Positions 3,824-63,945 of a stretch of DNA of 64,000 nucleotides are shown piece after piece (position 1 is the first letter of the stretch; the number at the start of each line of letters is the position of its first letter). Source of the stretch: a virus. A program made the translations under genes and the position numbers. The notes below the pieces were generated by a model. That model saw nothing but the letters and a program-made list of their open reading frames with translations. It did not search any database and was not told the origin of the DNA. The DNA is taken from the IMG/VR virus record IMGVR_UViG_3300045988_079613; one strand, written 5' to 3'.

Positions 3824-3853
3824 GGGCTGTTGTGAAACAGCCCTATCTTTTTA
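3824..3853. terminator. Bidirectional rho-independent terminator between convergent modules
   Basis: Hairpin GGGCTGTT-GTGA-AACAGCCC (3824-3843), flanked by a T-run on the plus strand (3847-3852) and an A-rich tract upstream (T-rich on the minus strand). Confidence 0.7.
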
Positions 3854-6800
3854 TTCTCCAAGTATCTATTTTTTGTAATAATTTCTTTTACTTTGTATAT
3901 CTTTTAATTCCTATATATTCCTAAATGGAGTAAGTTTTAAAAGGTTGCGCTCTTGTTCAGTCCATCCTTTATAAGCACCTCGCTTAATAGTAGCATCATA
4001 ATAAGTTTCTTTTAACCACCAGTACTTAATCCTTTCATATAATAAACTAACAGGATTAGAGAATAATTCAAACATATTACTAACATAGTCTGTAATAGCA
4101 GAAGGTGACTTGATAATAGATGCCATATCCAGAAGATTATATGGAGCTAATGTTTCAAATTGCGATCTTATTATAGTATATGCCAGTAGTTGTTTAATGA
4201 TGTTTTTCTTGTCGTCGTCCGCTGACTGCTCTAATAGCGGTCTAAGAAACCAAACAAGGCCTCCATATAATATACCTTCAAAGACCAATCTAGCCAAATT
4301 TTCTCTTACTAGAGGATCTTCTTGATTAAGTCTTTTATAAGTCTTAATTACGTTTTCATTGTTTTCTATAGCATTATCAAATAATCTTACTACAGTTTTG
4401 AATACTCCTTCTCTGTATCTCTAAGCTTGATAATCCCATTGTCTTGTCATTAACCATCTCTCTTGTAAAACAACCGGTAAATATTGTCTGTGCATCATAA
4501 CAAACTATCCTGCCCAATTAGCCAAAATCACAGGCTTTTGTAAAGAAGTAAGCTACCCATCGGCTGATTGTGCTAGAGTTTTGGCAATATAAGCTATTTT
4601 ATTCATAGCCTCATCTACTGCTTTCTAGTTTGTTTTATCTTTTGCTACCATTTTACCACCTACAAATTCTACAGCATCATAGAATGAAGTTTTATTTCCT
4701 AGATTCCAATCCATGTAATCGCCGGGAGCATAAGTAGGAAGTTTATGTTTTCTTTTATATTCCTCTCTACTCATAAAAATTTTTTTACCGCCTTCTTCTA
4801 CTAGCTTAAAATTATGCATAACAGAAGCAAGAATCTATCCTTTTACTACATGATCCATTAATGAATATGGACCGAATGCCCAATGTTTAGTGACAGCATT
4901 AACTAATTGCATTCTGTTTGTAGCATTTGGATTAATTTCTGCACCTATTTCGAAAAGTTCCATAGCTTGAGTTATGAATGTTTTTTTCCTAGAAACTCCC
5001 AGAACGTTCGATATAGCAAAAAATGAATCTGCTACAATATCAAAGAACGCATGACCAGCATCTATAGGATTGTAATATCTTTGTATTAACATATTTGTAA
5101 TATGCTAATGTAAAGCTGTATAAGCCCCTGTTAACGCACAAGCAAGATTTAAACCTAGATTTCTAAGAGTACCTAACATCTTAAGTATAGATAACATTTT
5201 TGTAATGTTAATTTCTCTTGGTTTACTTATATCATAAGTAAGTCCAAAAACATTGCCTTTATACGGAATCAAGCCTAATACTTTTCCAGTAGGGTTATCT
5301 CCATATCTTACACTAACGTCTTGAGTTTTTATATCATACAAATTCATGTCTATAAAGTTTTTAACGAATTTGTATGTATTACTGTTTCCGGTTTTTTCCT
5401 CTCCTCTTTTGTTAGTGTATTTAATACCTTGTACGTATCTTTTTAATATTTCTATTCTAGGTTGTATTTGAGTTTTATTTTTCCAACTTTCACACGACTT
5501 ATAGAACTATATTACTGAACCAACTAAATCCGCAGTTAAATACTCAGGATTATCTAATCTTTTAAGATAATATTGAGGTATTACATTTAATCTTTCTCCA
5601 TTAGGTTTAGTGAGAGCTCTATTAAAACCAACATCATCGTTTCTACATGATATAAGATCTTTCCAATAATCAATAAACCCTTTAAATGCTCCAGATATAT
5701 AATTTCTTTTCCAACCTGCATGTATATATTTTAACAAACTACCAGATTTCTGTGGAACCCTATAAGGATAAGTCTTATGCAGGTTAGTTAACTTATCGTT
5801 AGATTCTTTTATAGTATCTAAGATAGCTTGTCTAAGATTCTTTAGAGCCTCATTATTCATTACTTTATGATAATTCTTACTATTATCATAAGACTCAACT
5901 ATTTTACCATCTTCTATTACTTTAGATTTTGGTATCCAGTATTCATTCTATAAGTCTGGGTACTTTTCCTAAGTCTCATAGTAAGATTTGTTATAGAATT
6001 TGGATTCTTTAGATACCTCTAGCCAGTTACTATTAGGAGCATATTCTATCAAACTTTTATCCTTTGGTACTACTTTTGTATACCATGCTTTTGGATTTTT
6101 AATGTCATAAGCATTAGCTTTTAGCCACATTTCAGCAGATTCTGGATCTTCTAATACTACATTATAGTAATACTTTTTAAGATCCCTATACCACTGTTCT
6201 GTTGGTATTGTCTCTGCAATGTCCTCAAATTTGGCATCTCCTTCTTGTATTTCAACTTTTTTGTTTTTTCTAATGATAGACATCTATCTAGACAATCTTT
6301 GTATAGCAGCTTTAGAATTAGCTGACATATGATCTATGTCTATATTACCCGTCATATCATCCCTATGTTGATTTAATATAGATCTGCGCCTTTCTTGTAG
6401 TTCTGCGTATACAGGACCGTAATATTTTTTTTCTAGCTTTTCTAGTTTCTGATAAAACTCATCTTTATAGCGTACTTGAGAATTTCGTTCTAACCATTTC
6501 TGTTTTTGTTCTTTTGTCAGATTTGGATCAGCCATAATTTTAGCTTTTTCCTCCTCATATGCTTTACTATTCTTAGTCATAGTAAGACCTTCAGATAACT
6601 TCTTATTCAGTTCCTATAATTCTTCAGCTATTTTAAGCTTCTCTCCTTGCTTTTTAATACCTGTAGTATCATATAAACTAGCCAGTTGTTTTTTCTCAAG
6701 TAAATAAGCTCTATATGTGTTATATTCCTTATCGCTAAGTCTATCTAGATGTGCTATACCAGCAGAATCTCTAGTTTTATCTACTAGCTGTCGTATTTTT

Positions 6801-8272
6801 AATTGAATCTCCTCTCTAGCTGCTACCGTACCTTCACTTAAATGATTAAACATATCATAATACTCTCTAGTATATCTTCTATCTGTATGTTTAGATAACC
6901 ATTCATTTCTTCTCTTATTATACTCAATACGCAGCTATCTATTTTCTGGAGCTTTTATATCAGTAAGATCTACACCTAATTCTGATGCTATTTTTTTCAT
7001 AGCATCTGCATAGTTCTTTTCAAATTTACCATAGTTTCTAGCTCGTACTATATAACCAGTAGTATTACCATCATCATCTACTTCAAATAACATTCTCTGA
7101 TTATATTTTCCAGCTTTACTAAGTAAATCCTCAAGTTTTCTTATAACCTGGTAAGTATTTCTATTTGTTTCTTCTTCTGCTTTATTGATTAAGTAGAATA
7201 TTGTCTTAATAGAATCATTGTTTATCTTATCACCAGCACCTATATAGTATGTAAGCCAAGCTATATCTCTCTAAGATGGTGATGGATTAGACATTGAATA
7301 GTCATAGATAGTTGAGGACTTTACTTCTAGACCTACTTGCTTTAAATTCTATCTAGCATTATCAGCTATTTTACCTTTTACTATAGAATAACCATCAGTA
7401 AGCATAGCTTGGTAGTCTTTAGCTCTTTTAAGCATTCTATCAAGTATATATTCACCACTACTATCTTTTCCTATTATTTCTCTGTAGTTGTCTTTATATA
7501 TTAATTGACTTACTATCTCATCTACTATATCATTATAGAAACCAAAGAAGTTCTGATCTAGATCATTCAACTTAGTATCATCTATGTCCAGTCCTTTTCT
7601 ACGGACATTAACGAGATATTCGAAGGTAGGTCGCAATTCAAATCTTAAATTAGCTAAAAATTCATTAATGTTATCTAAATCTGATTTAAGACCTTCACTA
7701 ATATTTGCAATTAGCCATTCTGATTCTTTTTTTATCTTAGTTCTAAGTTCTGCGTCAGGATTAGTATTTACTTTTAATCTTGACTATAAACCTTTCAGTA
7801 TCTTTACATTTATGTCTCTTAAAATACTATCTAGTTCTTCCTTTTCTTTAGAATTATAATTATCTTTTGTCTATTCTAATCCTATTTCTAAGTCATTGTA
7901 AGCCTAATCAACGCGTTCTCTTAAGTCTTTATCTGTGTCAAAAAAAGACTTAGCTTCTTCACTTAAAGAATCTTGTGATTGATACTCTAACACCTACTAA
8001 GCAGTTGGTTCTATAGTTAAATCTTTATAAGTATTCTTAAAACCAATTAAAAAAACTTTAGATTTTTCCCTGATAGCCATTTTAGAATCATTGTTAAAAT
8101 GACTTAAAAGATCCTAATATAACTTAGAATCTTTACCTTCACTATCAAACTCTAAGCCATAACCATTATTTTCAGATAAGACATAATAGGCAGCATCATA
8201 GCTACCTAATATGTCAGTATACTCTTTTAACTATGCCTTTATTTCAGGCAATTCTGTTCTTAAACACGTCAT
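3851..8272 (-). CDS. Giant virion-associated (possibly ejected cargo) protein, 1473 aa under TAG read-through
   Basis: Nine track ORFs (3911..4297 to 7349..7636) share one frame. The gaps contain only TAG (about 23 in-frame TAG). No TAA or TGA from TAA 3851-3853 up to ATG 8270-8272. Function is inferred only from size and position beside the RNAP-like gene. Confidence 0.65.
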
Positions 8273-11200
8273 GATTTCTTACAATGTTTTTTACGTTTTT
8301 TACCTTCTTCTTTAAGGTTATTCAGATACTCATTTACTTCTGTAATACCTGTTTCAGAGTCCTACAAGGATCCTATAATATCATCTACCAACTCTGTAGA
8401 ATCAAAATAGGATTCGTCAGGCATTGCATAATCTTCTCCAAATGTATCATTAGCTTCTTCAATTCCTCCTAACATTTGATCTATTTCACCAAAATCTTCT
8501 ATTGTAGTAGAATTATCCGAAGTATCTACAAAACTTAAAGAAGGATCGCTATCAATTGATTCTGGATCAGATTGTATTCCACTATCTCCAAATGATTCAA
8601 TTAATTCATTTTGAAGTTCTTGATCTAAATTGGAATACTCCTAAGTTTTACCAACTTCAATATTAGAATACTACTCATCCTTAACAAACTGAGAATCTTT
8701 AATAGTTTTAATATATTTATCTACTATACTATCTATATCCTCAACGGTTTGTTTGATCATTGTGTCTGTAAACTTGTTATTCTCGAATGCAGATTGTTCT
8801 GTACCATTTTTATATAACTCATATATAGAACTTGCTCCATTATTGAAACCTAACTTAGGTATAGCAACATATACAATGCCGATAGTATTACCGTCTGCAT
8901 CTACTATTTGTCCAGATCTCTGGTATAATACCGTATTAGTAGATCTAGAACCTCCTATTTTTACAAACTTATTATTCTTATTTATGTCTGATCTACCTAA
9001 TGCAATAAATACAGTATTCACAGAACTATTAGTACGGTCTTTAGAACTAGCTAGATACATTGTATTAGATTTAGATTCTTCTCCATATCTAACATCTACT
9101 TTTGGTATATACAATGGAACTACATCATTATCTGCCCAGTAATTTCTTACCATATTTAAATAGATAGAATCTGTTAGTTCTTCTAAAGTAGAAGCATCCT
9201 AAATTATATCTATATCATTCCTTATCAGTTTGTTCATTGCATCTTTTATAGAATCTAAATATCCAATCTATTGTTTGTATTCCATTGGAACTACATTAAA
9301 GAATGAATTAGGAGTTCTATTATCATAACTAGTAACAAATGCATATTTTACCAAATCTTCTGCCAACTCTCTGACCATTTCGTCATCATTTGTAAGAAGA
9401 TCGTAAAATGCTGACCTAAGTCTATCTTCATAATATCTCGAATTATTTAAAGAAGAAGTAGCAGTAACTATTTTGTTAGCTTTGTTTTTATTAGATATGG
9501 TAATACCTTGTAGATAATTTAATAAATCGTTAGTAATATTGCCCTATTCATCTACTAAAGTAACTAAATTAGGATCCTATTTATTCTTTCTAATATAATT
9601 CTTGACAGCATTAAGTCTGCTAGCTATATTGTCCTTACCAAATGCCATACTGTTTAACTGTTCATCAGACAATCTAATATCAGTACCAGCTATCACTACT
9701 TTAGCACGAATTATACTCTCTACTTTCTCATTTATTTTTTTCACTAATTCTTTATTACTAGTAGGTCTATATAACTATATAGAAAGAGAACCATTAACTT
9801 GCTATGGATAATTACCACCTCTTAAATTATGCATTATACTCGTGAATATAGTCTTATAACCATTGGTAGCTCCAAATACTTGAGTTTTAAGTATATTATT
9901 AGCTAAATCCATAGCATATACTAATTTCTTATTTAAGAACGTCTTATTAAAGTAGTCCTCAAGCCCATTAAGATCCTCTCTACCTTCAGTATCAGGAGTA
10001 GAGAAGTCCTGTTGATGGTCTTTTATAAATGTCTGATATGAATTATAAAAGTTCTATAATTGAGTAATGTTATTACCATACTTTTTAGTATCTATCTGAG
10101 AACGTTGAACTAAGTCTGCCATAGTTTGAGCATCTCCACTTAATTCATTATAAGCTGTAAGTACGATTAACTACATTTTAATATCCTGTGGAGTTACCTA
10201 GCCTCTTCTAAATGCATCTAATGTACGAGACAATCTATCCTTGTCAAATGCTAATTTTTTATCTTCATCTGTTATCTTAAGAATAGATTCCTTATAAGAC
10301 TATGATATAGGATAATTATTTAACATTTTAGTATATTTGTCTATCAGTCTACTAATTATAGTATTATCATACTACTGTTTAGATCCAATAGCACCATTAT
10401 TAGCAATCTTAATATTAGCAAATTCCTTTAATATAGGTTGAGCTAAGAAGAAGAACGTATTTTCTCCCTTTCCACCACGTAACAATAAACTAGTCATATT
10501 ATATGTTACTTGATTCACATTAAGTTTAATAATGTAAGGATCTTTAGCTACATCGACATGAGCATTAATCATTGCAGATAACCAGTCTAATATTTTGAAA
10601 CCATCCTGTCCATTGATTTCATCAAATTGACCAAGACCATAAATATTGTTATGTGAAAATTTCATATGTAGATGTGTGGCTTGAGTCAAGCAATGGTTAG
10701 TAGAGTTAAGAGCAAAAGGTGCTATACCAGCTTTACCCCAAGTATATTCCATCTTTCTATACTCTTGGAACGATGGCATTAATTCATACATATAATCTGC
10801 TTCTTTCATCTCATCTACACTTACTTTTGGAAGTATTTCCTTAGTAAGGATACCGGTTAATGTATCAATAGATGCTCTAGTTTCAGACAATGTTTTTTCA
10901 TCAGATATTACTAGCGTATAACTATCTAACAGTTTATTTATCAGAGCTCCTTTAGATTGGTCAGAATAGGTTTTAGCATCTTCTTTCCAAGTATATCTCT
11001 GATGCGTATTAGGATCATACGAATATGTAGCTATATACAATTTATCAATATCAAAGTCAGAACCAGTCATAGCAGTAAATTCATCAGGTACTACTATGGT
11101 ATCTCCGGTCTATGCTGGTAAAACATCAGCTACTATGAAAGAGAAAGTAGATGACAAACCCTGAGTAGGTATACGATAACCTATACCATATGGATCACTT

Positions 11201-14200
11201 TGACTACCTATTATATTATTATCCAGCAACCATTTTCTTATTGCTACGTAACCCTATTCCTATACATCCTATGGTACTACATCTCTAAAGAAGTTAGTAC
11301 TAAGCATTACTTCCATACTACCTCTTTTAGGATCGAAACTAAGTTTTTTACCATCATTAAAAGGTCTAGTATCTTCGTTAGCATCTGTTATTACATCATT
11401 AGCTTTAAAACCAAATGATGCCATTTGAATAGCAGAACCTCCTGGAGTATTTACGTCTATTACTTCTTTATTTATTAAAGAAATTATTTTACTTTCAATC
11501 CAATTACGAACGCTAAGTGCTGCTATAGGAGCTTTAAAGTTACCCTTACTGTCAAGTTTTAATGCATCTATTATTTCTTGAGACATTCCATTTCCAGTAG
11601 CTTCTTCTACTAAATATCTAGACAAAGCAGCTTTATCTATAGAACCGTCTAATTTGAAGAATCTACCTTTCTTTTTCTTTCCATTGATAGTTCCTCCTTT
11701 TAAAGAAGTATAACCTAACGTAGACAATGCTTTAATACAACCAAATATATCCTTTTTTATTTGAGATCCAGATACATGCTTTCCTTTGTTATGACCATAG
11801 TATCTATCATCTACTACATTACCCATACCAATTTTTATCGCTTGAGTACCGAATGATCTATCTGTATGTTCATGTGGATCTGTATTAAGCTGCAATCTTA
11901 ACTGTTTAATATCTTGAATTCTAGTTGTTAATCCATCATTAAGTCTTTCAACGGCATTACCATTCGTAACTATCATAGTAGATGGCTTATTTAAGCCTTC
12001 TTTATTGAAACTTGTATTTCTGTTGTCATTATAGGCTTTGAACTTATCTTGAGGAGCACCGACCTTAACTGCAGATTCAAACAATAACATGTCTATCACA
12101 CCCAATTCTTCATTATTCATTCTGTCATATAAATACTTATTATCCGCTTTGGCTAGTATCTTAAACATAGGGAATAATGCCATTTTATCGAATGTAGGTA
12201 CATTTAATTTAGCTACAGAATCATAGTAATCACCAAAATACATCATCTTTAATGGTTTTATTGATGCTCTTAGAGCTTTACTATACAATTCTGGATTACT
12301 AAGAACATCATCTGAAGATTCTAGTATATTATATGCTTCTTCTATCTCAGGAGACCATTCTCCTAAAGCTTGCATAATTCTCTTATACATAGCTGGTCTG
12401 ATATATACAGCAGCATCTGCTTGATTTATATTGCCACTATTATTCTCATCATCATATGCATAAGGATTTGCAGCTTTCTCAGACTGTTTATCAACAAATT
12501 TCTTGGAATCATCAGATAAACTGTCATAAGATTCTTGCATTCTATCTTCATTCTTAGTAGCATCAAATAGCTATTTATCTGTCATGTCTGGATGCTCTTT
12601 CTGTAACATAGTTCTTATGAAAGATGCTCTAAATATCTATTTCAATGAATCGTGATATTCAGACCCTATATTGTTATCCTACATAACAGCACTAACGAAT
12701 TTAGTATCATTTCGTGGATCTCCTTCTCCCCAGTATGTTCTGAGATTAGTACCAGTAGATAATACAGAAGACAAACGTTTGATTTTATCCACATCTCTCT
12801 GGAATACACCTACTTCTTTGCTGGACTTCCACTTATAAAAAGCAGGATCTCCAACAAAACACTTTTCTACTTCTTCTATAGATATTGCGCAATTAGTTAC
12901 AAAATTAGCTATTATACTATATATAGCATCATTAGAATTTATATCGTCATAAGATGATTGAAACTATGCTTTATATTTTGCATATATATTAGTAGGAAGA
13001 TTACCAGAAGTAAGTTTACCAGATGAATCCCTAGATATTACTCCTAGTTTAATAGCTTCTTCTACTTCTTGATCTACTCTTCTTAATAACATTCTATTAA
13101 GAATATCATGCATACCAGCTACATCTTCTATGAACAATTTTCTGATATTGTCTAAAGTTTCATTAATTAACTTTGGATCATTGCTTTCTTCTGCAAATTG
13201 TAATAGATCATTTAATGAACGTATTTCTCCATCAGGCATTATTATTTGGTTAAAATATCTGAATCTACCACCATTTCCGCCTGGTTTCATTTTACCATCT
13301 TTCCCTATTTTGCCGTGATAGTTAGAATAATATCTCGATCTTCCTTGTTCTACGTCAGACTTTGTATTATAATATTCAGTAATAGCATTAAATTCGTCTA
13401 CAAAATAATTATAGAATATATTTAAAGTATTTTTACTAAATCTAAAATCAACTGGTACTTCTATTGTTTCCCCTTCAAAATTTGTAGTTGTAACAACAGA
13501 ATGTAGAAAATCTTTAGGAACATCTATTCCTTCTATGCTATACCATGTCTTTTTATCAGACATTGTAGGTAAAACTAATCTATTATTTTCAGATAAAGTT
13601 AACTTTGTAATATAATCCTCCAATGGAGTTATACCAAAATAATCCCTACTAGTATCTGTTAACTCATCATTAATAGCTAATAAAGTATGCAGTTTTAATT
13701 TAGGTTTATTTTTTCCTAGCAGTGCTTTTACAATAAGACTATTCTTACAATAAGGAGTATTGTTTAAGTTCTGCAATTTTCCATATGCGTTAGTGTTTAA
13801 CCATCTGATCTAATCGGACATATAGTTATTCTATGTGATAGGATATACTAAGCTACCATCTGCCCCAGTTACACTAAATTCTTCTGGAGTAGGATGTGTT
13901 TCTCCATATGCAATAGCCATTAAGTTCAATACGCTGTTTGGATTATAATAATTAAATATCTTATCTGCACTAATAGTCACTCCTCTAAATTTAGTAACTA
14001 AAGTTTTATTAGCCGCCATTGCTCTAATATTCTCATATACAGAGTTTCTTATAGAATTTATAGCTGCTCCATTTTTAGAGTCTGTATTCTTAGTTCTGAA
14101 TATCAAGTTAAAAGCGTCTACACCATCTATTCCAGTAGATTCCTTAGTACTTATACTACCTAATAAATAAGTAAGAGCATCATTGTCAAAATTGATACCC

Positions 14201-17200
14201 AGATTATTAACTAAATCTAGAAAGTCATTCTTAATATCTTCAAACAATTTTATATTTTCAGGAGTACGTTTGCCTTTTAATATTAAATTAAGACCAGAAT
14301 CTATTCTATTTATTAATTTAGTTATTTCTGCTAAAGCTTTAGAATTTATAACAGATCTGTTCTTACTATCTGTAGTAATCATAGTAGACAGCATAAAATT
14401 CTGCGACCATTGGGAAGGAAGTCTAGCTATTTTTCTTAAGTTATCACTGTCTTGTACTTCCCAAGTTCTTTTTCCTAATTCAGGATTAACATTTGCTGTA
14501 GATTTAATATCAATAGTATCCATACTATTCTTAGCACTCTGTATAGTAGTTAACAACTAAGTAATAGTATTTTCAGGAAGTGGATATTCAGGATTATCTA
14601 TATAGTCTCTGAGAGTAGCAAAGAACGGATCTGATTTCGCTAATCTTCTTACTTTTGATAACAAATCGTTCCAGTCATTAGAAGACCATAAATTCTCTAA
14701 TATTTTATTCCAAGTAATATCAAATGGTTGTACTACATCCATATCAAAGATAGGATCTTTAATAGTATCTGTAATCTTTCCATCCTCTGTGAGAATAAAT
14801 TTGCTCTTAGGAATAGAATAGAAGAACAACTTAGCATTAAATGCTACATTGGCTTTTTTACTTATTTCATATGAATTTCTATCCCATATATTATCATAAG
14901 TATCTCCAGGATCTTTAAGCATCTATTCAGCAACTTCTGTCTCTTCTCTTTCAATACTCTTAATACCTAATTCTTGTAAGAAAGCTCTAATTTGTTTAGC
15001 AAATATTTCTTTATTCTTTAATACATCTTCTACTATTTGTTTATTAGTAAGATTTTCATCATATACTCCATAATCATAGTTATACTGTATTATATTAAAT
15101 ACGTCATCTAACTTCAAATTACGTATGTCATCCATAGTACGAATATTCAAAGTAGCAAGAGCTGTACTACTCAATGATTCTATAATATTGTACATAGTAG
15201 ATGCATTAGTTATATGCGGTGTAGACTTTTGTTGAACATCTGATATACCAGGAGCATAATAATACATGCCTTCTGGGTGTCTTTTAGCAAATTCTGATAG
15301 TATTTCCTGTCCGATAAACGGTTTACTATTTTTAAATTTACCAGATCTTATAGCTTGGAACAATGTCTGCTATGCATTAAGAGGTCTATTACGGAAAGAT
15401 GTAACAAGATTCCACAAAGCTTTGAAGAATTTTTTCATCCTATATATAGGGGAAATATTAGATTCATTTATCATATAGGTTCTGAATTCCTCTGCTAATA
15501 CTTCTTCCATCTGATCTTTAGTGTACCCTTTATACTCAGGATGAGCTTTTATATAATCCGAATACACCTAATTTCTTTGTTCTTCACTAAGAATTAGTTG
15601 ACTGACATAGTGAAATGCTTCGTGATATTCTATGCCCTATCCAGCCTATTCAGACAAAACTATCTATGGATTAAATTCTTTGAATATTCTATTAAAAGAT
15701 ACTTTCATTAGACCATATACTTCTGGAGCATCAGCCATTCTCATAACAGCTCCAGTAACCAGTACATTGTCAATATCTAAACCTAATTTATCTTTTAACC
15801 ATTTTCTAGCTTTCTATTCATCAAACTTACCTCTCCTTTTTGTAGTAGAATAAATACCTGAACTCTTCTTCAGTTTAGCTACAATTGGATTATGACTTGG
15901 CAACATTACAGTAGTACCATCCTCCTTAAGGATATATTCCCATCTTGGTTTAGGAGTAAGCCCCATGGATAATGCTTCATCTTTAGATAGAAGTTTGTCT
16001 TTAGAAGATGGCTTACTAGCTGGAGCTATCGCTTCTTGTTTTACTTCAGTATCTTGTGTACTTTCAGTAGGTACATTATCCTTTCTAGGAGTTTCTGTAG
16101 TAGTAGGTCCAGTTATAGTAGGAGTAACTGGAGTAGGATCTCCTACTTCTTGTGCTCCATCCGCGTATATAAAAGGATCTTTAAATGCCTGTTCTCCTAC
16201 ACTAGTTTTTATTACTTGATGATTAATCATCCAAGACATTAAAGTAGGTGCTTCTTCGTGAGCTCTAACTACTTCTCCTTTATCGTTCTTGGTAAGTCCT
16301 AGATCCTACATAGTGAATATCAGATCATCACAGTTTAGTACTCTATAATAATCTGTTTTATATTCATTCATATACTGTATAGCATGTTCTACAATGCTAT
16401 CTGGAATAGGATCTTGCATCATTTGTTTGTCAGTATTCCAGTGTATATTATTAGATATATCTCTAATAGTTTGCCAAGCTTCTGCTTCTGAAAATACAGG
16501 TTGACCCTTAGCATCTTTTACTTTAAGATACTTAGTAGTATAGAATCCTTCAGGAGTTCTACTTCCATACATCAAAAAGGTTTCTCCTTTTTCGTTCTAG
16601 AAAGAATGTAAAGTCTTTCTAACATAGAATGATAACTTTTCTACACGAGAGTCACCCAGAGTAATAGTAGATGGTCCATGATTACATAAGATATTCAATA
16701 TATCTTTGTATACCTATTGATTACTTATTGGCAATGTACCGGTAACTAGTCTAAATACTAATTCAGCACTGGTAAGAGGTATACGTTTGCCATTATCATC
16801 ATATTTAGCTTTACCATTAGGAGTATAAGATGTAACAAGGGTGCTAGATCCTCCTGGTATGAAATGTCTTTTCTCAGATAGCATAATTGGAGCACTAACT
16901 CTCTAAGATGGAGTATTTGCTACTTTTGGAATTATGTATAATTTACCAGCATATCCTGTTCCCTAAGCACTTGTCTTAGTAGAACCATCAAACTATACTA
17001 TAGTAAATGCATCTGCCGGATCAAGAGGAAAAGGACCTTTACCGTAACCAAATTCTACTTCTCCAGACAATATTTGGTCACTCATTTCATATGGATCAGC
17101 ACTAAGTCCGAATTCAGGTACACTTGTTAATGATCTGTATATAGGATTATTACCTTCCTATTGGCTGTTTATAGAACCATTACTTTGTCGTAAATTTACT

Positions 17201-48734: not shown

Positions 48735-51700
48735 TTATATTTGTCTCTAGAAATCAGACCCATTTTCAACCATCCAAGCAGGACAATTAAATGGAACAAC
48801 AGTACCACCAGACATTACATATCCAGAAGCCATATTAGTGTATTTAAGCTGTACAAATTTATTAGGAGTTAGTGTTATTATACTCAAACTTAATGAACCG
48901 TTATATAAGAATTTACCAACTCCTCCAGGTAAATCACTTTGAGAGTTCTCAGTTACTACTCTCAGTGCATAGTTGCCAGTACCAGTAGTAGAAGTATAAA
49001 ATATATATAATGACATACCTTCGTAGGCGTCATTAAAAGGTAATGATATAGTGTAATCGGTAGCTCCGACATCATCTATTACCATTAACTACTTATTAGA
49101 TGTAATATTAGGTCTATATACTGAGGTGCTGCCAGTTAGCTATGAGTAGTATAACTTATCATATTCCTCAGCACTTCTCATTCTTATTACACCTCTATTC
49201 ATATCTACCTGTCCAGTGACAGCGTTCACCATGAAATTAGGAATAAACACACTACTTATATAAAATTCAAACGATACGCTTAAAGATCCAGTACCAAACT
49301 GTGCTATCTCTATAGATGTAGTATAGTCTCCTCCACTGCCAGCTTCACTAGACGGTAAAGTATATTCTACTGTAGAACTAGTTATAGGCATCTGTATGTA
49401 CTCTAGATTCCCATTTTTAATATATTTGTATTGCAATTGTACAGTTGCCGAAGGGTAAGTTTTTACTCCTTTCACTTTTATTTTAAACTCAGGTGTCTAT
49501 TTAGTAGTACTAACTATATCTGTATTAACTCCCCACATCATAGATACAACAGCATTACGTACAGTTACCTTATATGTCTCTATTGATACGTCATCCACCC
49601 AGTTGGAATCTGAGGGCATGGTAAAATGGTTAGTGAAATTAACTGTATTATTGGTAAAATTCTAATAATCACTAGTAGCATTTCCTCCACCGTCAACTCC
49701 TTCTTGGCTGAACATGTAGTCTCCGTTGAATATAAATTTACCCATACTACCACCATCCGCAATTAATATCTTGGTAAACAAAGCTTCGTATTTATCCATT
49801 AAGATCCATGTAGCATTACTGCCATTGGTGTTCCAATCTTGTTCTGGAGTCTTTCCAGTGCTAGTGCCCAACCAATTACCATTTTTGTTCATCACATAGT
49901 ACTCATCATTAAAGAATACATACGGTGCCTTTTCATCAGTACAAGTGTATGTCTTACTATCACTGTAAGTACCTACTGGATATATTATCCTACCCTTGTT
50001 ACCATCAGCTCCTACCCACTTAGTCCATTCGTAGACTTCATAATCTGTACTTTCTACAGGGCTAGTCTTATTATATGCTATACCAATATATTTAGTATAT
50101 CTATTAGGTGTATCATATATGTCAGCATCAGAAGTAGGTTCGTTATCTGAATATTTTATCCAGGTATACAACGTTGCTCCTGGTTCTCCATCCTATCCTG
50201 TTTCACCACTTATTCTTACAGGAGTACTCCAACCAGATTCCAGTTCATCATTAGGGGTTATAACTGCCATTATCATCCATAGTGTTTCTATATCTTCATC
50301 TACAGAAGGTACTGTAGTATTCCATCCTGCTGGATTACGGACCTACTGAGGAGTACCGGGAGAATAACCTGTAGTCACAGCTTTGAATCTAAATTCAGTA
50401 TATTTACCGTCCTAAGCTACTCCATCTTTACCATTTAATGGAACTACCTCTCCCCAAACATGAACACTATTGGTTTCTCCGTATACTAAACCTATACATT
50501 GCCACCATTGTCCCGTAGAAGAATCTGGAAAGTCAACCCAACCGTCTAATCCTCCGGGTTGAGGAACTCTAAAAGTAGGTTTATCTGGTTTAGTGTTTGA
50601 CTACTTATATACGTAAGTCTTCCAATTTGGAACAGTTCCAGGTTGTCCGTCTTCACCATCCTTACCATCTCTAATAACGTATATAGTTTCTGTATCCACT
50701 GTTACTCTATTGCCTGATCTCTCATCGTATAAAGTAAATGTCACCTGAGCTGTAATGGAACTACTGGCTACTACACTACCTATTGAATAATTAGCTTCAC
50801 CTCCATTATCTACTTTGTATGTGAACTTATACCCAGTCGGAGTAGTACTTAGAGTTTTAATAGTATCTCCTTCTATTAATTGAAGATCGCACCAAACGGA
50901 GTTTACTTCATTGCTGTCATCTTTAAATCTATGAATAGCGTTTACTGAAGGTAATAAAGAATATACTTTTGCATTCTCTCCATCTGCTCCTGGTCTTATC
51001 TTATTTATAGTAAATATTACATCTCTAACATATTGAGTACCTTCATTAGAAGCTTTAACATTTACAGGAATTCTTATAACATCTCCAGTAGTAGAAGATA
51101 TGCTTGTTACTGTAATTACTCCTGTTGATGCATTTGCATTAGCAGTTATTCCTTCTACAGATCCTACAGCTAGACTATCTAGTACTAACTTAGTAGTACC
51201 GTAGTACATGCTTACTGTGGTAGTTAATGGCAATCCAGAAATTACATTACCTTTAGAATCACAAGCAACAGACTGCATATCATTATCAAAGTCTGTTACT
51301 AATCCTCCTACACCATCAACTCCATCCTTACCATCACTTATTTTGAATACAGTCTCTTTATCTACTAGAGTTTCTCCGTTAGTAAGTAGGAATGTTACCT
51401 TTTTATCTATAGAAGTAACAGATAAATTCTAATCTATAGTATAGTTCTCTGCTAAGTCTTCGTCTATCACGTATTTAAATTGGAATCCGGAAGGAATAGA
51501 AGTGAGCATAGTAGTAACTTTTCCTTGGGTCTTCTTAATCCCACAGCTGATAAACTTAACATCAGCTACTCCTTTTTTGTCCACATGCATAGCATCTACA
51601 GAAGGCACTAAAGAATATAATATTGCATCCTGACCATCTGCTCCTGGTTTAATTTTATTAATAGTAAGATAAGTGGTTCTTTCTATCAACTCATTGTTCC

Positions 51701-54098
51701 ATACACATGAAGCATCAATAGGTATACGAATATTAGTAGGAGCTGAAGGAGTTATGGTACTTACTGTTATTATACCAGTCTTTCTATCTGCTGTAGCTGT
51801 AATTCCATCTACTTGACGTACACTTAAGGAACTAAGATTCAGTTCGGTAGTACCATAATACATAGTCAATTTGGTAGTAACCGGCAATCCAGATATTACA
51901 GCCCCTAAATTATCTGTAGCTACCGATTGAACTTCATTGTCCAAGTCTAATACGATACTACCTAGTCCGTCTAAACCATCTTTACCATACTTAGCCCATA
52001 ATGAAGGTCCTGTGTAAGCTCTCCATCGACCTCCTCTAAACTTTCTTTGACACACCCATTCATACTATAGTTCTTTAGTAACTCCTTGCGGGTTATCAGT
52101 CCAACCATCTCCTGGTATATATTCAATACCTTCGAAGTCTCCAGTTTCTTGATATGCGTCTGAATTAGTATTATTTGGAGTAGGATTATCAGGATCATTG
52201 TTCGTAGCGGTTCTATAGAATATATATTGAACTCCATCTCCGTCCTATCCGTTCTCTCCCCACTTAGACCATAATGCAGGGGTGCTAAATTCTCCCCATT
52301 TATTATCCTTTTTACTTCTGGTACTAACCCATTCTGCTTTTAATATAGAAGTTACTCCCTTAGGATTATCTGTCCAATTAATAGGAATAAAATCATCTAT
52401 GTCTTCTCCTACAGGAGTTTCAGGAGCATCACCTACTCCCGAATCAGTTGTACGAGTATAAATAAATTCTACTGAATTACCATCAGTTCCAGCTGCACCG
52501 TCTTGCCCAGATATCTTTATAGGTTCTGACCATTCTCCTTGTATATTAGGATTAGATGTAAACACTTTATTGGACATCCATACAGGTGGAGTTAATTCTT
52601 CGTCATTACTAGACCAACCTTCTGGATATACTATAATATTAGTATCAGCATCCCATTCACCTCCTACTGGTTTTTCTGGTTTTTCTATACTAGATTTATA
52701 CGCAAACACCGTGTTATAAGTATCCCCAGGTTCTCCCTATCCAGGTTCACCTTGTGGCCCTTGTTCACCGGTTATTCTTATTGGGCCCTACCATTCCTTG
52801 ACTAACTCGTTGTTCTCATCTATAAGAGCATTAATCATCCACATAAACTCACCTGGAGCTAATGTAGGTGGAGTATCTTCCCAACCAACAGGGTTTCTAC
52901 TAGTTTTATTTAAGGCCGGTATTATATTTATGGATACACTCTTAGAATACTTGAAATCCATATAGGTATTAGTTTTACCGTCTTCAGCTGTGCACTATAC
53001 AGGATCAGACCAAGTGGCTACAGTATTTGTACTACCGTCTACTAAACCCATAGACATCCACCATTTACCTTCAGCGCTAGGACCATCAAACCAACCATCA
53101 ATACCGGATACTCCAGGAGTAGGGGTAACAAAAGTAGGTTTAGATGGCTGCAATTCTGCTTGCTTAAATACCCATGTATTCCAATTTGGTTTCACAGATT
53201 GCCCTGGTTTTCCATCTAATCCATCTTTACCAGGAGGTCCTTGTTCTCCTTGAGGACCTTGAAAGCCTCTTTCCCCTCTTAAACCTTGTGCACCCTATGG
53301 ACCTACAAATTTAGCCCACACGTAATCTAATGGATTATTACTTGGCTCTTCGGTTTCTTTATTGGAAGCAATACCAATATACTATGAGTCTTCTTCCGGT
53401 TGATCTGTCATCTAGTCTCCATATTGAGAAGGAGAATATTTAATCCAAGTAAATTTGGTATACTCATTAGTAATATTAGGCGTAGAAAGATCTATCTTGT
53501 TATTATTTACTACCGCTATTAAGCTATCCTTAATTGAATCGTAGTATATCTATCCGTCTTTATAGGTACCTGTAACATTCCCTTCTATATGTTCTGCTAC
53601 ATCAATACCCTATGGTAATATCATAGTATCGTTTAATACTACGTCACCGTTTACAAACTTACCTCCTTCGAATGACAATATACTATTGTTTGGTATAGTG
53701 ATAGTTTTACCTTGTAAATCAAATTCGTATTGAATTACATATATAGTATCACTGCTATCAAAATCAGTTTGTAGCAGTATATTTTTGTTATTAACTATTC
53801 TTTTTCGTAGAATTTTTCTACCTAATCCACTATATTTGCTAGGATTATACTCTTTATCAGCAAATTTAAGACTAAAATCATCATCTACTTTTATATCCTC
53901 ACCATCAGCATATACTACACTTATAGGCTGCCAATATGATTCGTTAGTCAAACTTATATTACTTGGTACTTCTTTTATAGATATGAAAGACCTATATTGT
54001 TCGTCATAGACTAAACATAATCTATCATATTCTTTAGAAGAATCATGCTTACCGTCGCAAGTAAGAGTAACTTTACCTAATAATTTTGTGTATTCCAT
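48735..54098 (-). CDS. Very large modular tail fibre/appendage protein, 1787 aa
   Basis: Ten track ORFs (48747..49085 to 53610..54098) are co-framed. About 20 in-frame TAG. ATG at 54096-54098, TAA at 48735-48737. Two tandem homologous ~200-aa modules (50601..51278 and 51429..52055). Collagen-like tracts at 52735-52785 and 53195-53300. Recurrent W-x-x-P...G-x-DG motifs. Confidence 0.7.
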
Positions 54099-59272: not shown

Positions 59273-60742
59273 TCACTCAGCTTCCATGATCAGTTCCCCA
59301 CACGCACGTGGATCCCTTAACATTATTCCCATTTCTCCAAGGAAGAATACAGTATAACCATCCTTACCATTAGATCTCAGAGTATTCTTAGAGTTTGCAT
59401 AACCAGACGGAGCAACTGCACCACCAGTATACCAAGTAACAAACTCGCGATCTTTACGAACTACTTTTACGATGTTAGCTTCACCATCACGTCTACCAAG
59501 ATCTAAGAATGTCATACGATATGACTCTAGAGGTTTCAACGTAACAGGATGTAATTGACGATTATAAGTAACATCATCATACAACGGGAAGTACTTCAGA
59601 GTCAATTCAATACCATTAGTCATTTTGTAAGTCTTAAACTGACCACCAAAAGTAAGATTATCACCAGAACCTGTAACAAATACTGTGTCAATAAGATTCA
59701 TATTGACCATCTTTTCTTTCAAGATTCTATCAAATTCTCTCATACCCATCTCACCGGTCAATGCAACAAACTTACGTTCATTAGTACCAAGTACATTATA
59801 TGACAGATCAAATAAGAAGTCTTCTAATAAGGCTGCAGTAAGTCTAGTATAGTAACGTTTGTTAGACGGAGCAATCTGTTCCAACAAACCAGCACCCATA
59901 AATACAGGACGCCCGTTAGTACCTTTCAGATTACAAGTACCATCTTTGTTTACATTGTTCTTCATGTAAACCAACATTCTTTCACATCTCTTATACCACT
60001 CTCTCATGGCAACCCATTCTTGGTAGTCTGCCCACAGATAAGATTTCTTACCTGTCTTAGGATCCTGCAATGCAATAGCCATTACTGTAGAATAAGCTGA
60101 ACCAGTAATATCATAATTGATACGAATTGTAGTCAAATAATTACGCATCTTAAATGCAGTATTATAGTTCAGGATATCACCTTCTTCACTATATTCTTCT
60201 ACAGCAGAAGCTAGACGTGACACTTGGCAACCAGGTTTCAGGTATTCAGCAGGAATATAAGAAGTAGGTTGGCCGTCTGCAATATAACAGGTATAAACCC
60301 ATAGATTGCCATCTTGGTAAGGAGCACCTGCAACACGTACTTGGAAGTCTTTGTTATCAAATTCCAATACAGCAGTAGGTCCAAACCAATTATCTTCCAG
60401 CCACAACATGATTGGAGTATTACCCAAACCAGCTGTAGTCGTATCTGTGATGGCTGCGCCATTCCATTTAGCATCTCTAATTGTTACTGCTCTGTCAGCG
60501 TCAATCATTACATTCCACTCCCAACTAGGCTGATCAATGGTCATCACATTACCAAGACCACCAGTGAGCATATCCAAAGAAGTGTTGTAACCATTATCTT
60601 TAGTACCAAATACATAAGACAATACGGTAGCAACCTGATACGGATTCTATTGTGAAGCTGCTGAAATTTTAGCAGTATCAATCAGATCACTGAACCACTT
60701 GCCTTTGTACAAAACCAAATTGTTTAATATATTGTTATCCAT
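59273..60742 (-). CDS. Major capsid protein candidate (crAss-like, HK97-fold class), 489 aa
   Basis: Track ORF 59273..60622 extended through a single TAG (60647-49) to ATG 60740-60742. The call rests on size, position after the scaffold-like gene, very low TAG density and my recollection of crAss-like MCPs. Confidence 0.6.
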
Positions 60743-60747
60743 ATATT

Positions 60748-62542: not shown

Positions 62543-62776
62543 TTATTTTCTCTTTCTTCCTTTGTGTTTCCATTTCTTAGCGTTCTAAGCAAAGATAGCT
62601 CTCTTCCTAGTTAGTGGGTTCTTACTGTGAGTAAGTTCTTCCGTACTTTTACCAGTACGTTTCTTTAAAGCATTAAACTTGCCTCTATTCTTCTTTTTGA
62701 TATGTATCCCACCATCTTTATAATTAGGTATCGGATACTGTGGCATTATCCCTACCATATCTCTTATATCATTCAT
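62543..62776 (-). CDS. Small highly basic protein, 77 aa
   Basis: Track ORF 62585..62776 extended through a TAG at 62585 to TAA 62543-62545. The extension is NAKKWKHKGRKRK. Confidence 0.45.
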
Positions 62777-63869
62777 TCTACTCAGTTCCTTTATATACTG
62801 CAGCAGTACCTAAACCTAATAATGGTATAGAGTTAAACCACTTAGTATACTTATTAATATTCTTAAACTATTTACTAGCTCTCACTGCTGATCCATAAGT
62901 ATCAGTATCCTTTAAAGTATCTAAAGTCTATTGAAGCAATTTAGCATCAACCTTATCGCCTCTTCTGTTAATTTTGCCACTGTTAAATAGATATTCTCTA
63001 ATTTGATTCATATAAGCCTTCTATTCAGTTGGTCTCATATAATATTCAAAATGTTTATCTATCTTATTGTTACTGATATCCTCACTCATCTTATAGAATA
63101 AATTACTATTTCCAGATGCTCCTGGAGTTTTATTTGTAAGATAATCTACTAAATGATTCCATTCATGTTCTGTTACATTGCCTGATAAATCTGTTTTAGT
63201 CGGATCTATTCTATAATTGAATTCCTCCATTCTAGGGAATTCTCCTCCAGCCATATGTCTATTTGCAGCACTGGTAGTAGCACCCATCTAAGCTCTAGCA
63301 TTAGGAAGATTATTAGTAAGTTCTACCTGAGGTAATTTACTAGGATTAGTATTATATGTAGATATTAAATCTGCATAAGTCCGCATATAGTTATCACCGA
63401 ATTGTTTACGAACCTACATAGCTCTATTGAAATAATCTGGATCATCTTGCAACCTTTCGACTACTTTATATCCTTCGTTTCTGGCTTTAGGTTTAAGATA
63501 CTACTCTCTACGAGCAGCTTCTATTATTCTATCTTTTTCTAACTGTTCTGCCGCTCTGTTTACTTTAGGAATAGGTCTCTTTACCTTAGGAGTTATACCT
63601 TTGTATGAACTTCTAAATTGTTTAACAGTCATTGGCATAAAAGGAATTAGACCCATTGCTGCCAAACCTGCACCAGACCAGTCTTTATTTCTTAAAGCTT
63701 CATAAGTATCATATATAGATATGGCATCGCCAACAGGAGTTACATTTGCAGCATCTTCAAGATCTACTATTGGTCTCAAACCTCTGATGAATGGTTTACC
63801 GGTAAATCTATCAATCTCATCACTACTATTATCATAATAATCAGCCTTCAGCGTACTTCTTAAAGTCAA
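62769..63869 (-). CDS. Protein with an HExxH zinc-metallopeptidase motif, about 366 aa, start uncertain
   Basis: Track ORFs 63501..63869 and 63021..63287 are co-framed. About 7 TAG. HEWNH at 63153-63167, TGA at 62769-62771. No ATG near the 5' end; only TTG at 63867-69 is available. Confidence 0.5.
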
Positions 63870-63945
63870 GGTAAGTCTTACCGGGATTCTACTCCCGGTA
63901 CTACTTCAACTATTGCATTCTATTTCTAAATGCTTCTCTATCCAT
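63841..63945 (-). CDS. 34-codon ORF, possibly the true N-terminus of 62769..63869 in another frame
   Basis: ATG at 63943-45, 3 in-frame TAG, TGA at 63841-43. Encodes MDREAFRNRMQQLKQYREQNPGKTYLDFKKYAEG and contains the hairpin TACCGGGA-6 nt-TCCCGGTA (63890-63911). Confidence 0.3.

What the first reader, a model, noticed from the sequence alone, without database searches (positions are those of the whole stretch)
3851..63945. TAG is a sense codon throughout the late module, and read-through is needed to annotate the window
In the standard-code track every large minus-strand gene is shattered. The pieces nevertheless stay in one frame and abut exactly at TAG (for example 6283/6284, 14556/14557 and 14922/14923). 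My triplet scan of every gap found only TAG, never TAA or TGA. This holds within reading frames of 13.5 kb (8227..21732), 5.4 kb (48735..54098), 4.4 kb (3851..8272), 4.2 kb (25674..29846) and 3.4 kb (40144..43542). In total there are roughly 280 in-frame TAG. Every reconstructed gene ends in TAA or TGA. Pseudogene decay would produce all three stop codons plus frameshifts. Recoding of this kind is already documented for crAss-like and other gut phages, so the phenomenon is known.
Basis: partly seen in the sequence, partly recalled or inferred. Interest (0 to 1): 0.8.

Follow-up and report, generated by a model that had tools for sequence, protein, structure and literature searches.

The report
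TAG-as-glutamine late genes, crAss-like phage
This window comes from a human-gut crAss-like phage whose late (virion and lysis) genes read the stop codon TAG as glutamine; the reading is real, but it is already documented, proteomically validated in related phages, and annotated in a RefSeq genome about 95% identical over much of the window.

Summary
If TAG is read as sense, minus-strand ORF coverage (ORFs of 600 nt or more) rises from 16.2 kb to 53.7 kb. Making TAA or TGA sense instead changes almost nothing. Thirty-seven minus-strand genes (3851-63905) carry 275 in-frame TAG, no in-frame TAA or TGA, and all end in TAA or TGA.

There are two slips. The 13.5 kb ORF ends at 8269, not 8227. The gene starting at 63945 is broken by a 110-nt out-of-frame deletion, not by TAG.

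TAG means glutamine. In four standard-code relatives the conserved muzzle-protein columns carry CAA or CAG. Against cr50_1, 31 of 148 aligned TAG positions are Gln, a 6.1-fold enrichment that equals the conservation of ordinary Gln codons.

The window is a Buchavirus (Crassvirales, Suoliviridae), about 95% identical over much of its length to RefSeq cr56_1, whose CDSs are already annotated through TAG. The window has no tRNA. The closest contig and other relatives carry a tRNA(CUA) upstream of the terminase gene.

The replication genes (1-3818, + strand) are TAG-free except a DUF1064 resolvase-like gene with TAG at codon 4.

Verdict: already known; interpretation supported; low novelty.

The parts
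3851..63905 (-). Late (virion and lysis) module: 37 co-directional genes with 275 in-frame TAG, no in-frame TAA or TGA, and all terminated by TAA or TGA.
8269..21732 (-). Giant gene g36 (4,487 aa, 78 TAG). Its C-terminal ~1,900 aa are homologous to the virion-packaged RNA polymerase gp66 of Cellulophaga phage phi14:2 and keep the GSDFDIDK catalytic motif. The N-terminal ~2,500 aa have no Pfam match.
   Evidence: 6VR4, E 6.6e-37, three stretches; no Pfam hit. Homologues of 4,461-4,504 aa in cr56_1, cr60_1, L144 and L146.
3851..8272 (-). Gene g37 (1,473 aa, 23 TAG), the last gene of the late module. It converges on the plus-strand replication genes.
   Evidence: Homologues: cr60_1 gp26 and cr56_1 gp38.
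25674..29846 (-). Gene g33, crAss muzzle protein (1,390 aa, 24 TAG). This is the gene used to infer the meaning of TAG.
   Evidence: PF25731 and PF25729 on all homologues; conserved TAG columns are CAA or CAG in standard-code relatives.
30563..31480 (-). Gene g31, CrAss_Ring_1 ('tail tubular') protein. 9 of its 14 Gln codons are TAG, so it is TAG-rich.
   Evidence: PF24228 on orthologues.
35310..35948 (-). Gene g24, LysB/spanin-like lysis protein. 6 of its 10 Gln codons are TAG, and it is TAG-rich in all five genomes compared.
   Evidence: annotation of the 100% identical cr56_1 protein.
48735..54098 (-). Gene g11 (1,787 aa, 20 TAG), a conserved hypothetical virion protein.
40144..43542 (-). 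Gene g18, tail fibre protein (1,132 aa, 16 TAG).
59273..60742 (-). Gene g4, major head protein (489 aa). It has only 1 TAG against 12 CAA or CAG, so it is TAG-poor.
   Evidence: phrog_11589, E 5.6e-137.
62769..63945 (-). Disrupted gene, homologue of cr56_1 gp73. The ATG is at 63945. Three TAG are read through, then TGA at 63841-63843. The rest is in another frame (62769-63905). The cause is a 110-nt deletion at 63845/63846 relative to the closest contig.
1..3818 (+). Replication and recombination module: primase 3' end, DUF1064 resolvase-like gene, ATPase, MRE11-like phosphoesterase, Cas4-like exonuclease and one hypothetical gene. It is readable in the standard code. Stops are TAA or TGA, and there is no internal TAG except in the DUF1064 gene.
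141..521 (+). DUF1064 (PD-(D/E)XK, annotated Holliday junction resolvase) gene with TAG at codon 4 (150-152). It is the only TAG-containing gene in the replication module.
164..187 (+). Primase 3' end: ...EKTR, then TAG (164-166), then six codons, then TAA TAA. TAG is probably the working stop early in infection, with nearby back-up stops.

Best explanation
The window is about two thirds of the genome of a crAss-like phage (Crassvirales, Suoliviridae, genus Buchavirus) from the human gut. Its late module is written in genetic code 15: UAG is translated as glutamine, and only UAA and UGA terminate.

The decoding agent is a phage-encoded amber-suppressor tRNA with anticodon CUA. Its gene lies about 6-7 kb beyond the right end of the window, immediately upstream of the terminase gene at the head of the late block. 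The tRNA is presumably charged by the host glutaminyl-tRNA synthetase and competes with host release factor 1.

The replication genes on the other strand are compatible with the standard code, so they can be translated as soon as the phage enters a standard-code host. Virion and lysis proteins cannot be completed until the suppressor tRNA has accumulated. Recoding therefore acts as a translational timer.

Shown here:
- TAG-only interruptions of the frames.
- Gln identity of TAG.
- Restriction of TAG to the late block.
- The tRNA(CUA) at the block boundary in the closest relatives.

Inferred, not shown:
- Charging of the tRNA with Gln.
- Competition with RF1.
- Timing of tRNA expression.
- The regulatory purpose.
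For: (1) TAG-only read-through. ORF coverage is 16.2 kb under the standard code and 53.7 kb with TAG as sense; the TAA-sense and TGA-sense controls stay flat. There are 275 in-frame TAG and 0 TAA or TGA in 19,295 codons.

(2) Meaning of TAG.
- Codon-level comparison with cr60_1: window TAG aligns to CAA 69, CAG 20 and TAG 58; the next most common codon is GAG with 8.
- Muzzle genes of cr50_1, cr10_1, cr1_1 and cr118_1 have 0 in-frame TAG. Of the eight conserved window TAG columns (6, 48, 204, 604, 1024, 1038, 1193, 1315), cr50_1, cr10_1 and cr1_1 carry CAA or CAG at all eight, and cr118_1 at four.
- Across 16 genes against cr50_1, 31 of 148 aligned TAG positions are Gln (21%). That is a 6.1-fold enrichment and equals the 21% self-conservation of ordinary Gln codons. 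No other residue is enriched above 1.5-fold.
- cr50_1 itself uses TAG as a stop in 8 of 36 genes, so it is a true standard-code comparator.

(3) Suppressor tRNA. The window has none. tRNA(CUA) genes occur in cr56_1 at 92120-92199, next to a homing endonuclease and TerL, in cr60_1, and in L005, L006 and L014. One also occurs in IMGVR_UViG_3300045988_070947, which is 99% identical to window 62461-64000. All fold as cloverleaves with a CU-CUA-AC anticodon loop.

(4) Module restriction. In cr56_1 TAG density is 12.0 per 1,000 codons in the late block, 0.73 in the plus-strand block, and 1.4 in the minus-strand genes upstream of the tRNA. The window's plus-strand genes behave the same way.

(5) Literature. 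The same pattern is described in PMC7886860 and in the preprint 10.1101/2021.08.26.457843. Peptides with Gln at TAG were detected in two crAss-like phages (PMC9523058).
Against: - No tRNA gene lies inside the window, and the exact source contig was not recovered. The closest contig is 99% identical over the last 1.5 kb, not 100%.
- No proteomic or ribosome-profiling data exist for this genome.
- The isotype of the tRNA(CUA) is not established by sequence. ARAGORN labels it 'Pyl' purely from the anticodon.
- Eight late genes contain no TAG, so the timer cannot act on every late protein.
Confidence: 0.93

Rival explanations
1. The genes are decaying pseudogenes or an assembly artefact, and the TAG codons are real premature stops.
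For: One gene at the right edge does carry a frame-shifting 110-nt deletion.
Against: There are 275 TAG but 0 TAA or TGA in frame over 19,295 codons, while off-frame TAA plus TGA are 5-12% of triplets. Full-length homologues align across the TAG positions. The same TAG positions are conserved, or swapped with CAA or CAG, in relatives. RefSeq relatives have the same gene lengths.
Confidence: 0.01
2. TAG is a sense codon but encodes something other than glutamine, for example pyrrolysine (ARAGORN's label), Trp, Tyr, Leu, Glu or Lys.
For: ARAGORN names the CUA tRNA 'tRNA-Pyl'. Several of these amino acids are one mutation away from TAG.
Against: At TAG positions only Gln is enriched (6.1-fold against cr50_1). 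Lys is 0.8-fold, Tyr 0.3-fold, Trp 0.6-fold, Leu 0.9-fold and Glu 1.2-fold. Conserved columns are CAA or CAG in standard-code relatives. CAA, which is two mutations from TAG, is the commonest partner; that fits synonymous exchange and not mutational proximity. Metaproteomics in related phages found Gln (PMC9523058). The 'Pyl' label follows from the anticodon alone.
Confidence: 0.02
3. Read-through depends on a host factor (a host suppressor tRNA, near-cognate tRNA-Gln, or weak RF1) and not on a phage-encoded tRNA.
For: No tRNA was found in the 64 kb window. Yutin et al. note that recoding and detectable suppressor tRNAs do not always coincide (PMC7886860).
Against: Every close relative for which the region upstream of TerL was read has a tRNA(CUA) there, including the contig 99% identical to the window's end. 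Near-cognate read-through could hardly complete a protein with 78 UAG codons.
Confidence: 0.04
4. The whole genome is read in code 15 at all times, so TAG is never a stop. There is then no early/late code switch and no timing function.
For: RefSeq annotates all CDSs of cr56_1 through TAG. No window gene needs TAG as its only stop, because each TAG is followed by TAA or TGA.
Against: In cr56_1, the TAG codons in five genes outside the late block sit in the last 1-9 codons (codons 150/158, 192/193, 153/155, 128/132, 130/130). That is the pattern expected of real stops followed by back-up stops. In 80 related loci, 33 of the 98 TAG in replication-module ORFs lie within the last 10 codons. The window's primase ends ...EKTR-TAG-6 codons-TAA-TAA. 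TAG density differs about 16-fold between modules. The phage must begin translation in a host without the suppressor tRNA.
Confidence: 0.1

Closest known systems
RefSeq NC_055890.1, crAssphage cr56_1 (Buchavirus faecalis), and NC_055891.1, cr60_1 (Buchavirus hominis); Suoliviridae, Loutivirinae
   Same: Gene order is the same. Identity to cr56_1 is 95.6% over 81% of window 40000-62000, and identity to cr60_1 is 82% over 95% of window 3300-24700. The TAG-containing late genes are the same, the CDSs are already annotated through TAG, and a tRNA(CUA) lies next to TerL.
   Different: The window is a mosaic of the two. It has its own tail-fibre-like gene g16. It keeps the g25-g26 genes that cr56_1 lacks. 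It has a frame-shifting deletion in the gp73 homologue.
Code-15 (TAG to Gln) crAss-like phages described by Yutin et al. 2021 (PMC7886860), Borges et al. (preprint 10.1101/2021.08.26.457843) and Peters et al. 2022 (PMC9523058)
   Same: Recoding is confined to late structural and lysis genes. Replication genes are in the standard code. The suppressor tRNA is phage-encoded. Spanin-like and tail-tube-like genes are TAG-rich, here g24 and g31.
   Different: Nothing essential differs. There is no proteomic evidence for this particular genome.
Block-wise dual genetic codes in phage genomes (Mgcod, preprint 10.1101/2022.06.29.495998)
   Same: The genome is divided into a standard-code block and a TAG-reassigned block.
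   Different: Here one short gene (DUF1064, 141-521) inside the standard-code block is itself recoded. A block model would miss it.
Lak megaphages and other TAG-recoded gut phages (10.1101/356790; phAss-1, PMC10607447)
   Same: They use the same TAG reassignment and suppressor tRNAs.
   Different: They are unrelated lineages with much larger genomes. Some encode RF2 or aminoacyl-tRNA synthetases. Neither was annotated in the two Buchavirus RefSeq genomes read here.

Membership tests
Genetic code 15 (TAG to Gln) phage late module | In-frame TAG but no in-frame TAA or TGA in long conserved genes; coding density is restored only when TAG is read as sense. | tested here: met
   Coverage 16.2 kb versus 53.7 kb. 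275 TAG, 0 TAA, 0 TGA.
Genetic code 15 (TAG to Gln) phage late module | TAG positions correspond to glutamine in homologues that use the standard code. | tested here: met
   with DNA-level checks so that the result does not depend on database proteins already translated with TAG as Q. for CAA or CAG exchange with TAG in recoded relatives.
Genetic code 15 (TAG to Gln) phage late module | The genome encodes a suppressor tRNA with anticodon CUA. | tested here: inconclusive
   Absent from the window. Present upstream of TerL in the 99%-identical contig and in four other relatives. The source genome beyond position 64000 was not available.
Genetic code 15 (TAG to Gln) phage late module | Recoding is limited to late genes, and early or replication genes are readable in the standard code. 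| tested here: met
   window 1-3818; cr56_1: 12.0 versus 0.73 TAG per 1,000 codons; 80 loci. The one exception is the DUF1064 gene.
Genetic code 15 (TAG to Gln) phage late module | Peptides with Gln at TAG positions. | not testable with these tools
   Shown for two other crAss-like phages in PMC9523058, not for this genome.
Crassvirales (crAss-like phages), Suoliviridae, Buchavirus | Signature virion genes: crAss major head protein, muzzle protein, ring proteins, and a gp66-type virion RNA polymerase. | tested here: met
   phrog_11589; PF25731 and PF25729; PF24228 and PF25702 on orthologues; 6VR4.
Crassvirales (crAss-like phages), Suoliviridae, Buchavirus | Nucleotide similarity to classified members of the genus. 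| tested here: met
   The identity is 82-96% depending on segment. Species assignment was not attempted.
Pyrrolysine decoding of UAG | A tRNA-Pyl together with pylS and pylBCD genes, with UAG at positions aligned to Lys-like residues or not conserved. | tested here: not met
   Lys is not enriched at TAG positions (0.8-fold). No pyl genes appear among the annotated CDSs of cr56_1 or cr60_1. The ARAGORN label derives from the anticodon only.

The most novel reading that the evidence does not exclude
Within the otherwise TAG-free replication module, one gene is deliberately gated by UAG: the DUF1064 PD-(D/E)XK 'Holliday junction resolvase' (window 141-521, TAG at codon 4).

- In 42 of 47 distinct orthologues from 80 related contigs, a TAG sits within the first 8 codons. 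The surrounding N-terminal sequence varies, so the position moves between codons 3 and 8.
- The gene's TAG density is 10.4 per 1,000 codons. Its neighbours have 0.84 per 1,000.

The reading is that a potentially harmful branch-cutting nuclease, transcribed with the replication genes, is held back at the translation step. It is released when the suppressor tRNA appears, at packaging time. In the same module TAG still works as a stop, backed by nearby TAA or TGA, so the same codon has two meanings at two stages of infection.
Probability: 0.35. Interest if true: 0.4.

Novelty: already known. Interest (0 to 1): 0.2.

Why it matters
For annotation it matters a great deal. Under the standard code about 70% of the coding sequence of this window is lost or shattered, including a 4,487-residue virion RNA polymerase fusion. 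Any pipeline that does not switch to code 15 will misread it.

As biology it is a clean, internally controlled example of a documented phenomenon, not a discovery. The only part that may add something is the gene-level pattern:
- a UAG gate at the start of a resolvase-like nuclease inside the standard-code module;
- TAG avoidance in abundant head proteins;
- TAG enrichment in the spanin-like and ring genes.

This pattern fits, and slightly extends, the published idea that recoding times late protein synthesis.

Tried and rejected
- PHROGs gave names for only 4 of the first 10 genes. Pfam gave nothing for the giant gene g36 or for g21, g26, g9, g16 and g2.
- The first choice of distant homologues (P0052, P0004, P0067) turned out to come from recoded contigs whose database proteins had already been translated with TAG as Q ('translates_to_query: no'). 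The protein-only tally is therefore partly circular. It was replaced by codon-level comparison with standard-code genomes.
- The exact source contig was not found among 21 IMG/VR matches to the window's last 50 bases; the best was 99% identical.
- I considered that TAG-free genes might be recent imports from standard-code phages. That may hold for g16, which has no relatives in the phage collection, and for the GIY-YIG endonuclease g5. It does not hold for g25 and g26, which are conserved across the family and TAG-poor in other recoded relatives.
- I considered that the resolvase TAG might be forced by overlap with the primase 3' end. I rejected this because cr56_1 keeps the TAG without any overlap.
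- Rfam found nothing in the window.
- A literature search for a recoded resolvase found no relevant paper in the held library. That does not prove novelty.

Full report
**Observation.** The window is AT-rich (32.8% G+C).
- On the minus strand, stop-to-stop ORFs of 600 nt or more cover 16.2 kb when all three stops are used. They cover 53.7 kb when only TAA and TGA are stops, and the longest ORF grows from 1,827 to 13,467 nt.
- The control experiments, making TAA or TGA sense instead, leave coverage at 17.5 and 16.4 kb. The plus strand is unaffected.
The 13.5 kb ORF runs 8269-21732, so '8227' is a slip.
- The named abutment points are in-frame TAG codons: CTA on the plus strand at 6284-6286, 14557-14559 and 14923-14925.
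- My 37 gene models hold 19,295 codons, 275 TAG, no TAA and no TGA. All end in TAA or TGA.
- In the off-frames of the same genes TAA plus TGA make up 5-12% of triplets, so ORFs of thousands of codons cannot arise by chance.

**What the sequence is.**
- Window 40000-62000 is 95.6% identical over 81% of its length to RefSeq NC_055890.1, crAssphage cr56_1 (Crassvirales; Suoliviridae; Loutivirinae; Buchavirus faecalis).
- The giant-gene region 3300-24700 is closer to cr60_1 (Buchavirus hominis): 82% identity over 95%. The window is therefore a mosaic within the genus.
- Both RefSeq records already annotate long CDSs through TAG.
- Gene identities:
  - g4 is the crAss major head protein.
  - g33 is the muzzle protein, PF25731 and PF25729.
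  - g31 and g29 are ring proteins 1 and 2, by orthology to called genes.
  - The C-terminal ~1,900 residues of the 4,487-residue g36 match the virion RNA polymerase gp66 of phage phi14:2 (PDB 6VR4, E 6.6e-37), including the GSDFDIDK metal-binding motif. Pfam finds nothing in g36.

**Meaning of TAG.** Many database proteins for this lineage were predicted with TAG already translated as Q. Three chosen homologues did not translate back under table 11. The protein-only tally (Q at 42% of TAG columns) is therefore partly circular, and I used codons instead.
- Against cr60_1, window TAG aligns to CAA 69 times, TAG 58, CAG 20, and nothing else more than 8 times. Relatives' TAG align to window CAA or CAG in the same way.
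- CAA is two mutations from TAG. Its dominance therefore reflects synonymous exchange and not mutational proximity.
- Four Suoliviridae genomes (cr50_1, cr10_1, cr1_1, cr118_1) have no in-frame TAG in their muzzle genes. Of the eight conserved window TAG columns, cr50_1, cr10_1 and cr1_1 carry CAA or CAG at all eight; cr118_1 does so at four.
- Across 16 late genes compared with cr50_1, 31 of 148 aligned TAG positions are Gln. That is 21%, identical to the 21% self-conservation of ordinary Gln codons, and a 6.1-fold enrichment. No other residue exceeds 1.5-fold.
- cr50_1 has 0 TAG in 11,972 late codons and uses TAG as a real stop in 8 of 36 genes.
- TAG therefore encodes glutamine, and 33% of all Gln codons in the late module are TAG.

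**The decoding agent.**
- The window has no tRNA and no Rfam match.
- cr56_1 has a tRNA with anticodon CUA at 92120-92199, between a block of small TAG-poor genes and the homing-endonuclease/TerL/portal genes. cr60_1 has one in the same place.
- Scanning IMG/VR with the window's last 50 bases and with a degenerate anticodon-arm pattern found 21 and more than 120 stretches.
- Contig IMGVR_UViG_3300045988_070947 is 99% identical to window 62461-64000. It carries tRNA(CUA) plus tRNA-Met just upstream of TerL.
- By position, this places the gene about 6-7 kb beyond the window's right end.
- Three quite different tRNA(CUA) sequences occupy this locus among close relatives. All fold as cloverleaves with an identical CU-CUA-AC anticodon loop, and position 1 is U with a weak or mismatched 1:72 pair.
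- From general knowledge, a weak 1:72 pair is a feature of bacterial tRNA-Gln. I treat that as a lead only. ARAGORN's 'Pyl' label follows from the anticodon alone.

**Distribution of TAG.**
- In cr56_1, TAG density is 12.0 per 1,000 codons in the late block (28078-92105). It is 0.73 in the plus-strand early and replication block, and 1.4 in the minus-strand genes upstream of the tRNA.
- TAG codons outside the late block of cr56_1 mostly lie in the last 1-9 codons of their genes. This is what real stops followed by back-up stops would look like.
- In the window, the five plus-strand genes at 1-3818 have no internal TAG and end in TAA or TGA. The primase ends ...EKTR-TAG(164-166)-six codons-TAA-TAA.
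- Within the late module TAG use is uneven, and the unevenness is conserved among relatives:
  - TAG-poor: the major head protein (1 of 13 Gln codons), the acidic scaffold-like g2 (1 of 18), g9 (0 of 12) and g26 (0 of 21).
  - TAG-rich: the LysB/spanin-like g24 (6 of 10; 5-8 TAG in four other genomes), ring protein 1 (9 of 14) and the HNH endonuclease g3 (6 of 7).
- This matches the gene-level bias reported for spanin and tail-tube families in crAss-like phages (preprint 10.1101/2021.08.26.457843).

**Mechanism.** The best-supported model is the published one.
- The phage enters a standard-code host and translates its code-compatible replication genes.
- It then expresses the suppressor tRNA at the head of the late block. 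Only then can it complete virion and lysis proteins.
- Shown here: the codon pattern, the Gln identity, the module boundary, and the tRNA in relatives.
- Inferred: Gln charging, competition with RF1, timing, and adaptive value.

**Comparison with the literature.**
- Yutin et al. [quoted passage not shown]
- Peters et al. 2022 (PMC9523058) detected peptides with Gln at TAG in two crAss-like phages.
- Mgcod (preprint 10.1101/2022.06.29.495998) formalised block-wise dual coding.
- The finding is therefore already known.

**Departures and extras.**

*(a) A broken gene at the right edge.*
- The gene starting at 63945 is not rescued by TAG read-through. After 34 codons it meets TGA (63841-63843), and homology continues in another frame.
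- The window lacks 110 nt at 63845/63846, between short direct repeats. Contig 070947 keeps those bases in frame as a 417-residue protein.
- This is the single frameshift in the interval. It may be a real deletion variant or an assembly error.

*(b) A recoded gene in the replication module.*
- The plus-strand DUF1064 nuclease gene (141-521; Pfam PF06356, E 7.4e-11; annotated Holliday junction resolvase in RefSeq) has TAG at codon 4.
- In 80 related loci, 42 of 47 distinct orthologues have a TAG within the first 8 codons even though the N-terminal sequence varies. The gene has 10.4 TAG per 1,000 codons against 0.84 in its neighbours.
- This suggests a translational gate on a nuclease transcribed with the replication genes. 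It is an inference, and I found no description of it in the held library.

*(c) A diversity-generating retroelement.*
- It consists of reverse transcriptase g22 (36564-37571; PF00078), a template repeat at 37706-37796, and a variable repeat at 37850-37940 in the 3' end of the Mtd-like tail gene g21.
- 21 of the 22 mismatches fall at template adenines.

Noticed in passing
window 36564-39069 (minus strand): Diversity-generating retroelement. Its parts are reverse transcriptase g22 (36564-37571, PF00078), a template repeat at 37706-37796, and a variable repeat at 37850-37940 in the 3' end of the Mtd-like tail protein gene g21 (37828-39069). 21 of the 22 template/variable mismatches are at template adenines. 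The target gene has no TAG, while the RT gene has 7.
   Followed up: partly
window 63841-63945, junction at 63845/63846: The homologue of cr56_1 gp73 starts at 63945 and is broken by a 110-nt out-of-frame deletion, flanked by short direct repeats, relative to the 99%-identical contig IMGVR_UViG_3300045988_070947, where the gene is an intact 417 codons. It could be a real deletion variant or an assembly error. The same gene is also interrupted in two other relatives (L024, L006).
   Followed up: partly
window 141-521 (plus strand), TAG at 150-152: The DUF1064 resolvase-like nuclease gene in the replication module carries TAG at codon 4. 42 of 47 distinct orthologues in 80 related contigs have a TAG within the first 8 codons despite a variable N-terminus. 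TAG density is 10.4 per 1,000 codons against 0.84 in neighbouring genes. It may be a translational gate.
   Followed up: yes
window 164-187 (plus strand); cr56_1 record 3294-3770, 6763-7344 (minus strand), 8128-8595, 8573-8971, 11747-12139: Outside the late block, TAG codons sit in the last 1-9 codons of genes and are followed closely by TAA or TGA. The window's primase ends TAG, then six codons, then TAA TAA. This suggests TAG works as a stop early in infection, with back-up stops for late read-through.
   Followed up: partly
window 3300-24700 versus the rest; 45086-46900; 33331-35274: The window is a mosaic. The giant-gene segment is closest to cr60_1 (82%), while most of the rest is about 95% identical to cr56_1. 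The 604-residue, TAG-free, tail-fibre-like gene g16 has no nucleotide relative in the phage collection apart from 155 bases in Bacteroides phage SJC03. The g25-g26 genes are missing from cr56_1 but conserved elsewhere in the family.
   Followed up: partly
window 59273-62524, 54986-55957, 33791-34639, 35310-35948, 30563-31480: Gene-level TAG bias is conserved across relatives. Head genes (major head protein, scaffold-like g2, g9) and g26 avoid TAG. The spanin-like g24, ring protein 1 and the HNH endonuclease g3 prefer it.
   Followed up: partly
window 60748-61323, 58178-59191, 29839-30561: Three free-standing homing endonuclease genes flank the major head protein and muzzle genes: HNH g3, GIY-YIG g5 and GIY-YIG g32. 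g5 is TAG-free and differs from the endonuclease at the same site in cr56_1. g3 encodes 6 of its 7 Gln with TAG.
   Followed up: no
L001 43254-43333; L003 24176-24250; L006 8449-8523; L048 1359-1433: Three strongly divergent tRNA(CUA) sequences occupy the same TerL-proximal locus in closely related phages. The anticodon loop is identical, stems show compensatory changes, and U1 sits opposite U72 or A72. cr56_1's copy has a 5-nt longer variable region. Some genomes have an adjacent tRNA-Met.
   Followed up: partly
window 8269-21732: The 4,487-residue protein fuses a gp66-type virion RNA polymerase (C-terminal ~1,900 residues) to about 2,500 N-terminal residues with no Pfam match, including a long acidic low-complexity stretch. 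RefSeq calls its homologue 'nuclear pore complex protein-like', which is uninformative.
   Followed up: partly
window about 3800-4000: GC skew changes sign (+0.17 to -0.20) exactly where the plus-strand replication genes converge on the minus-strand late genes.
   Followed up: no
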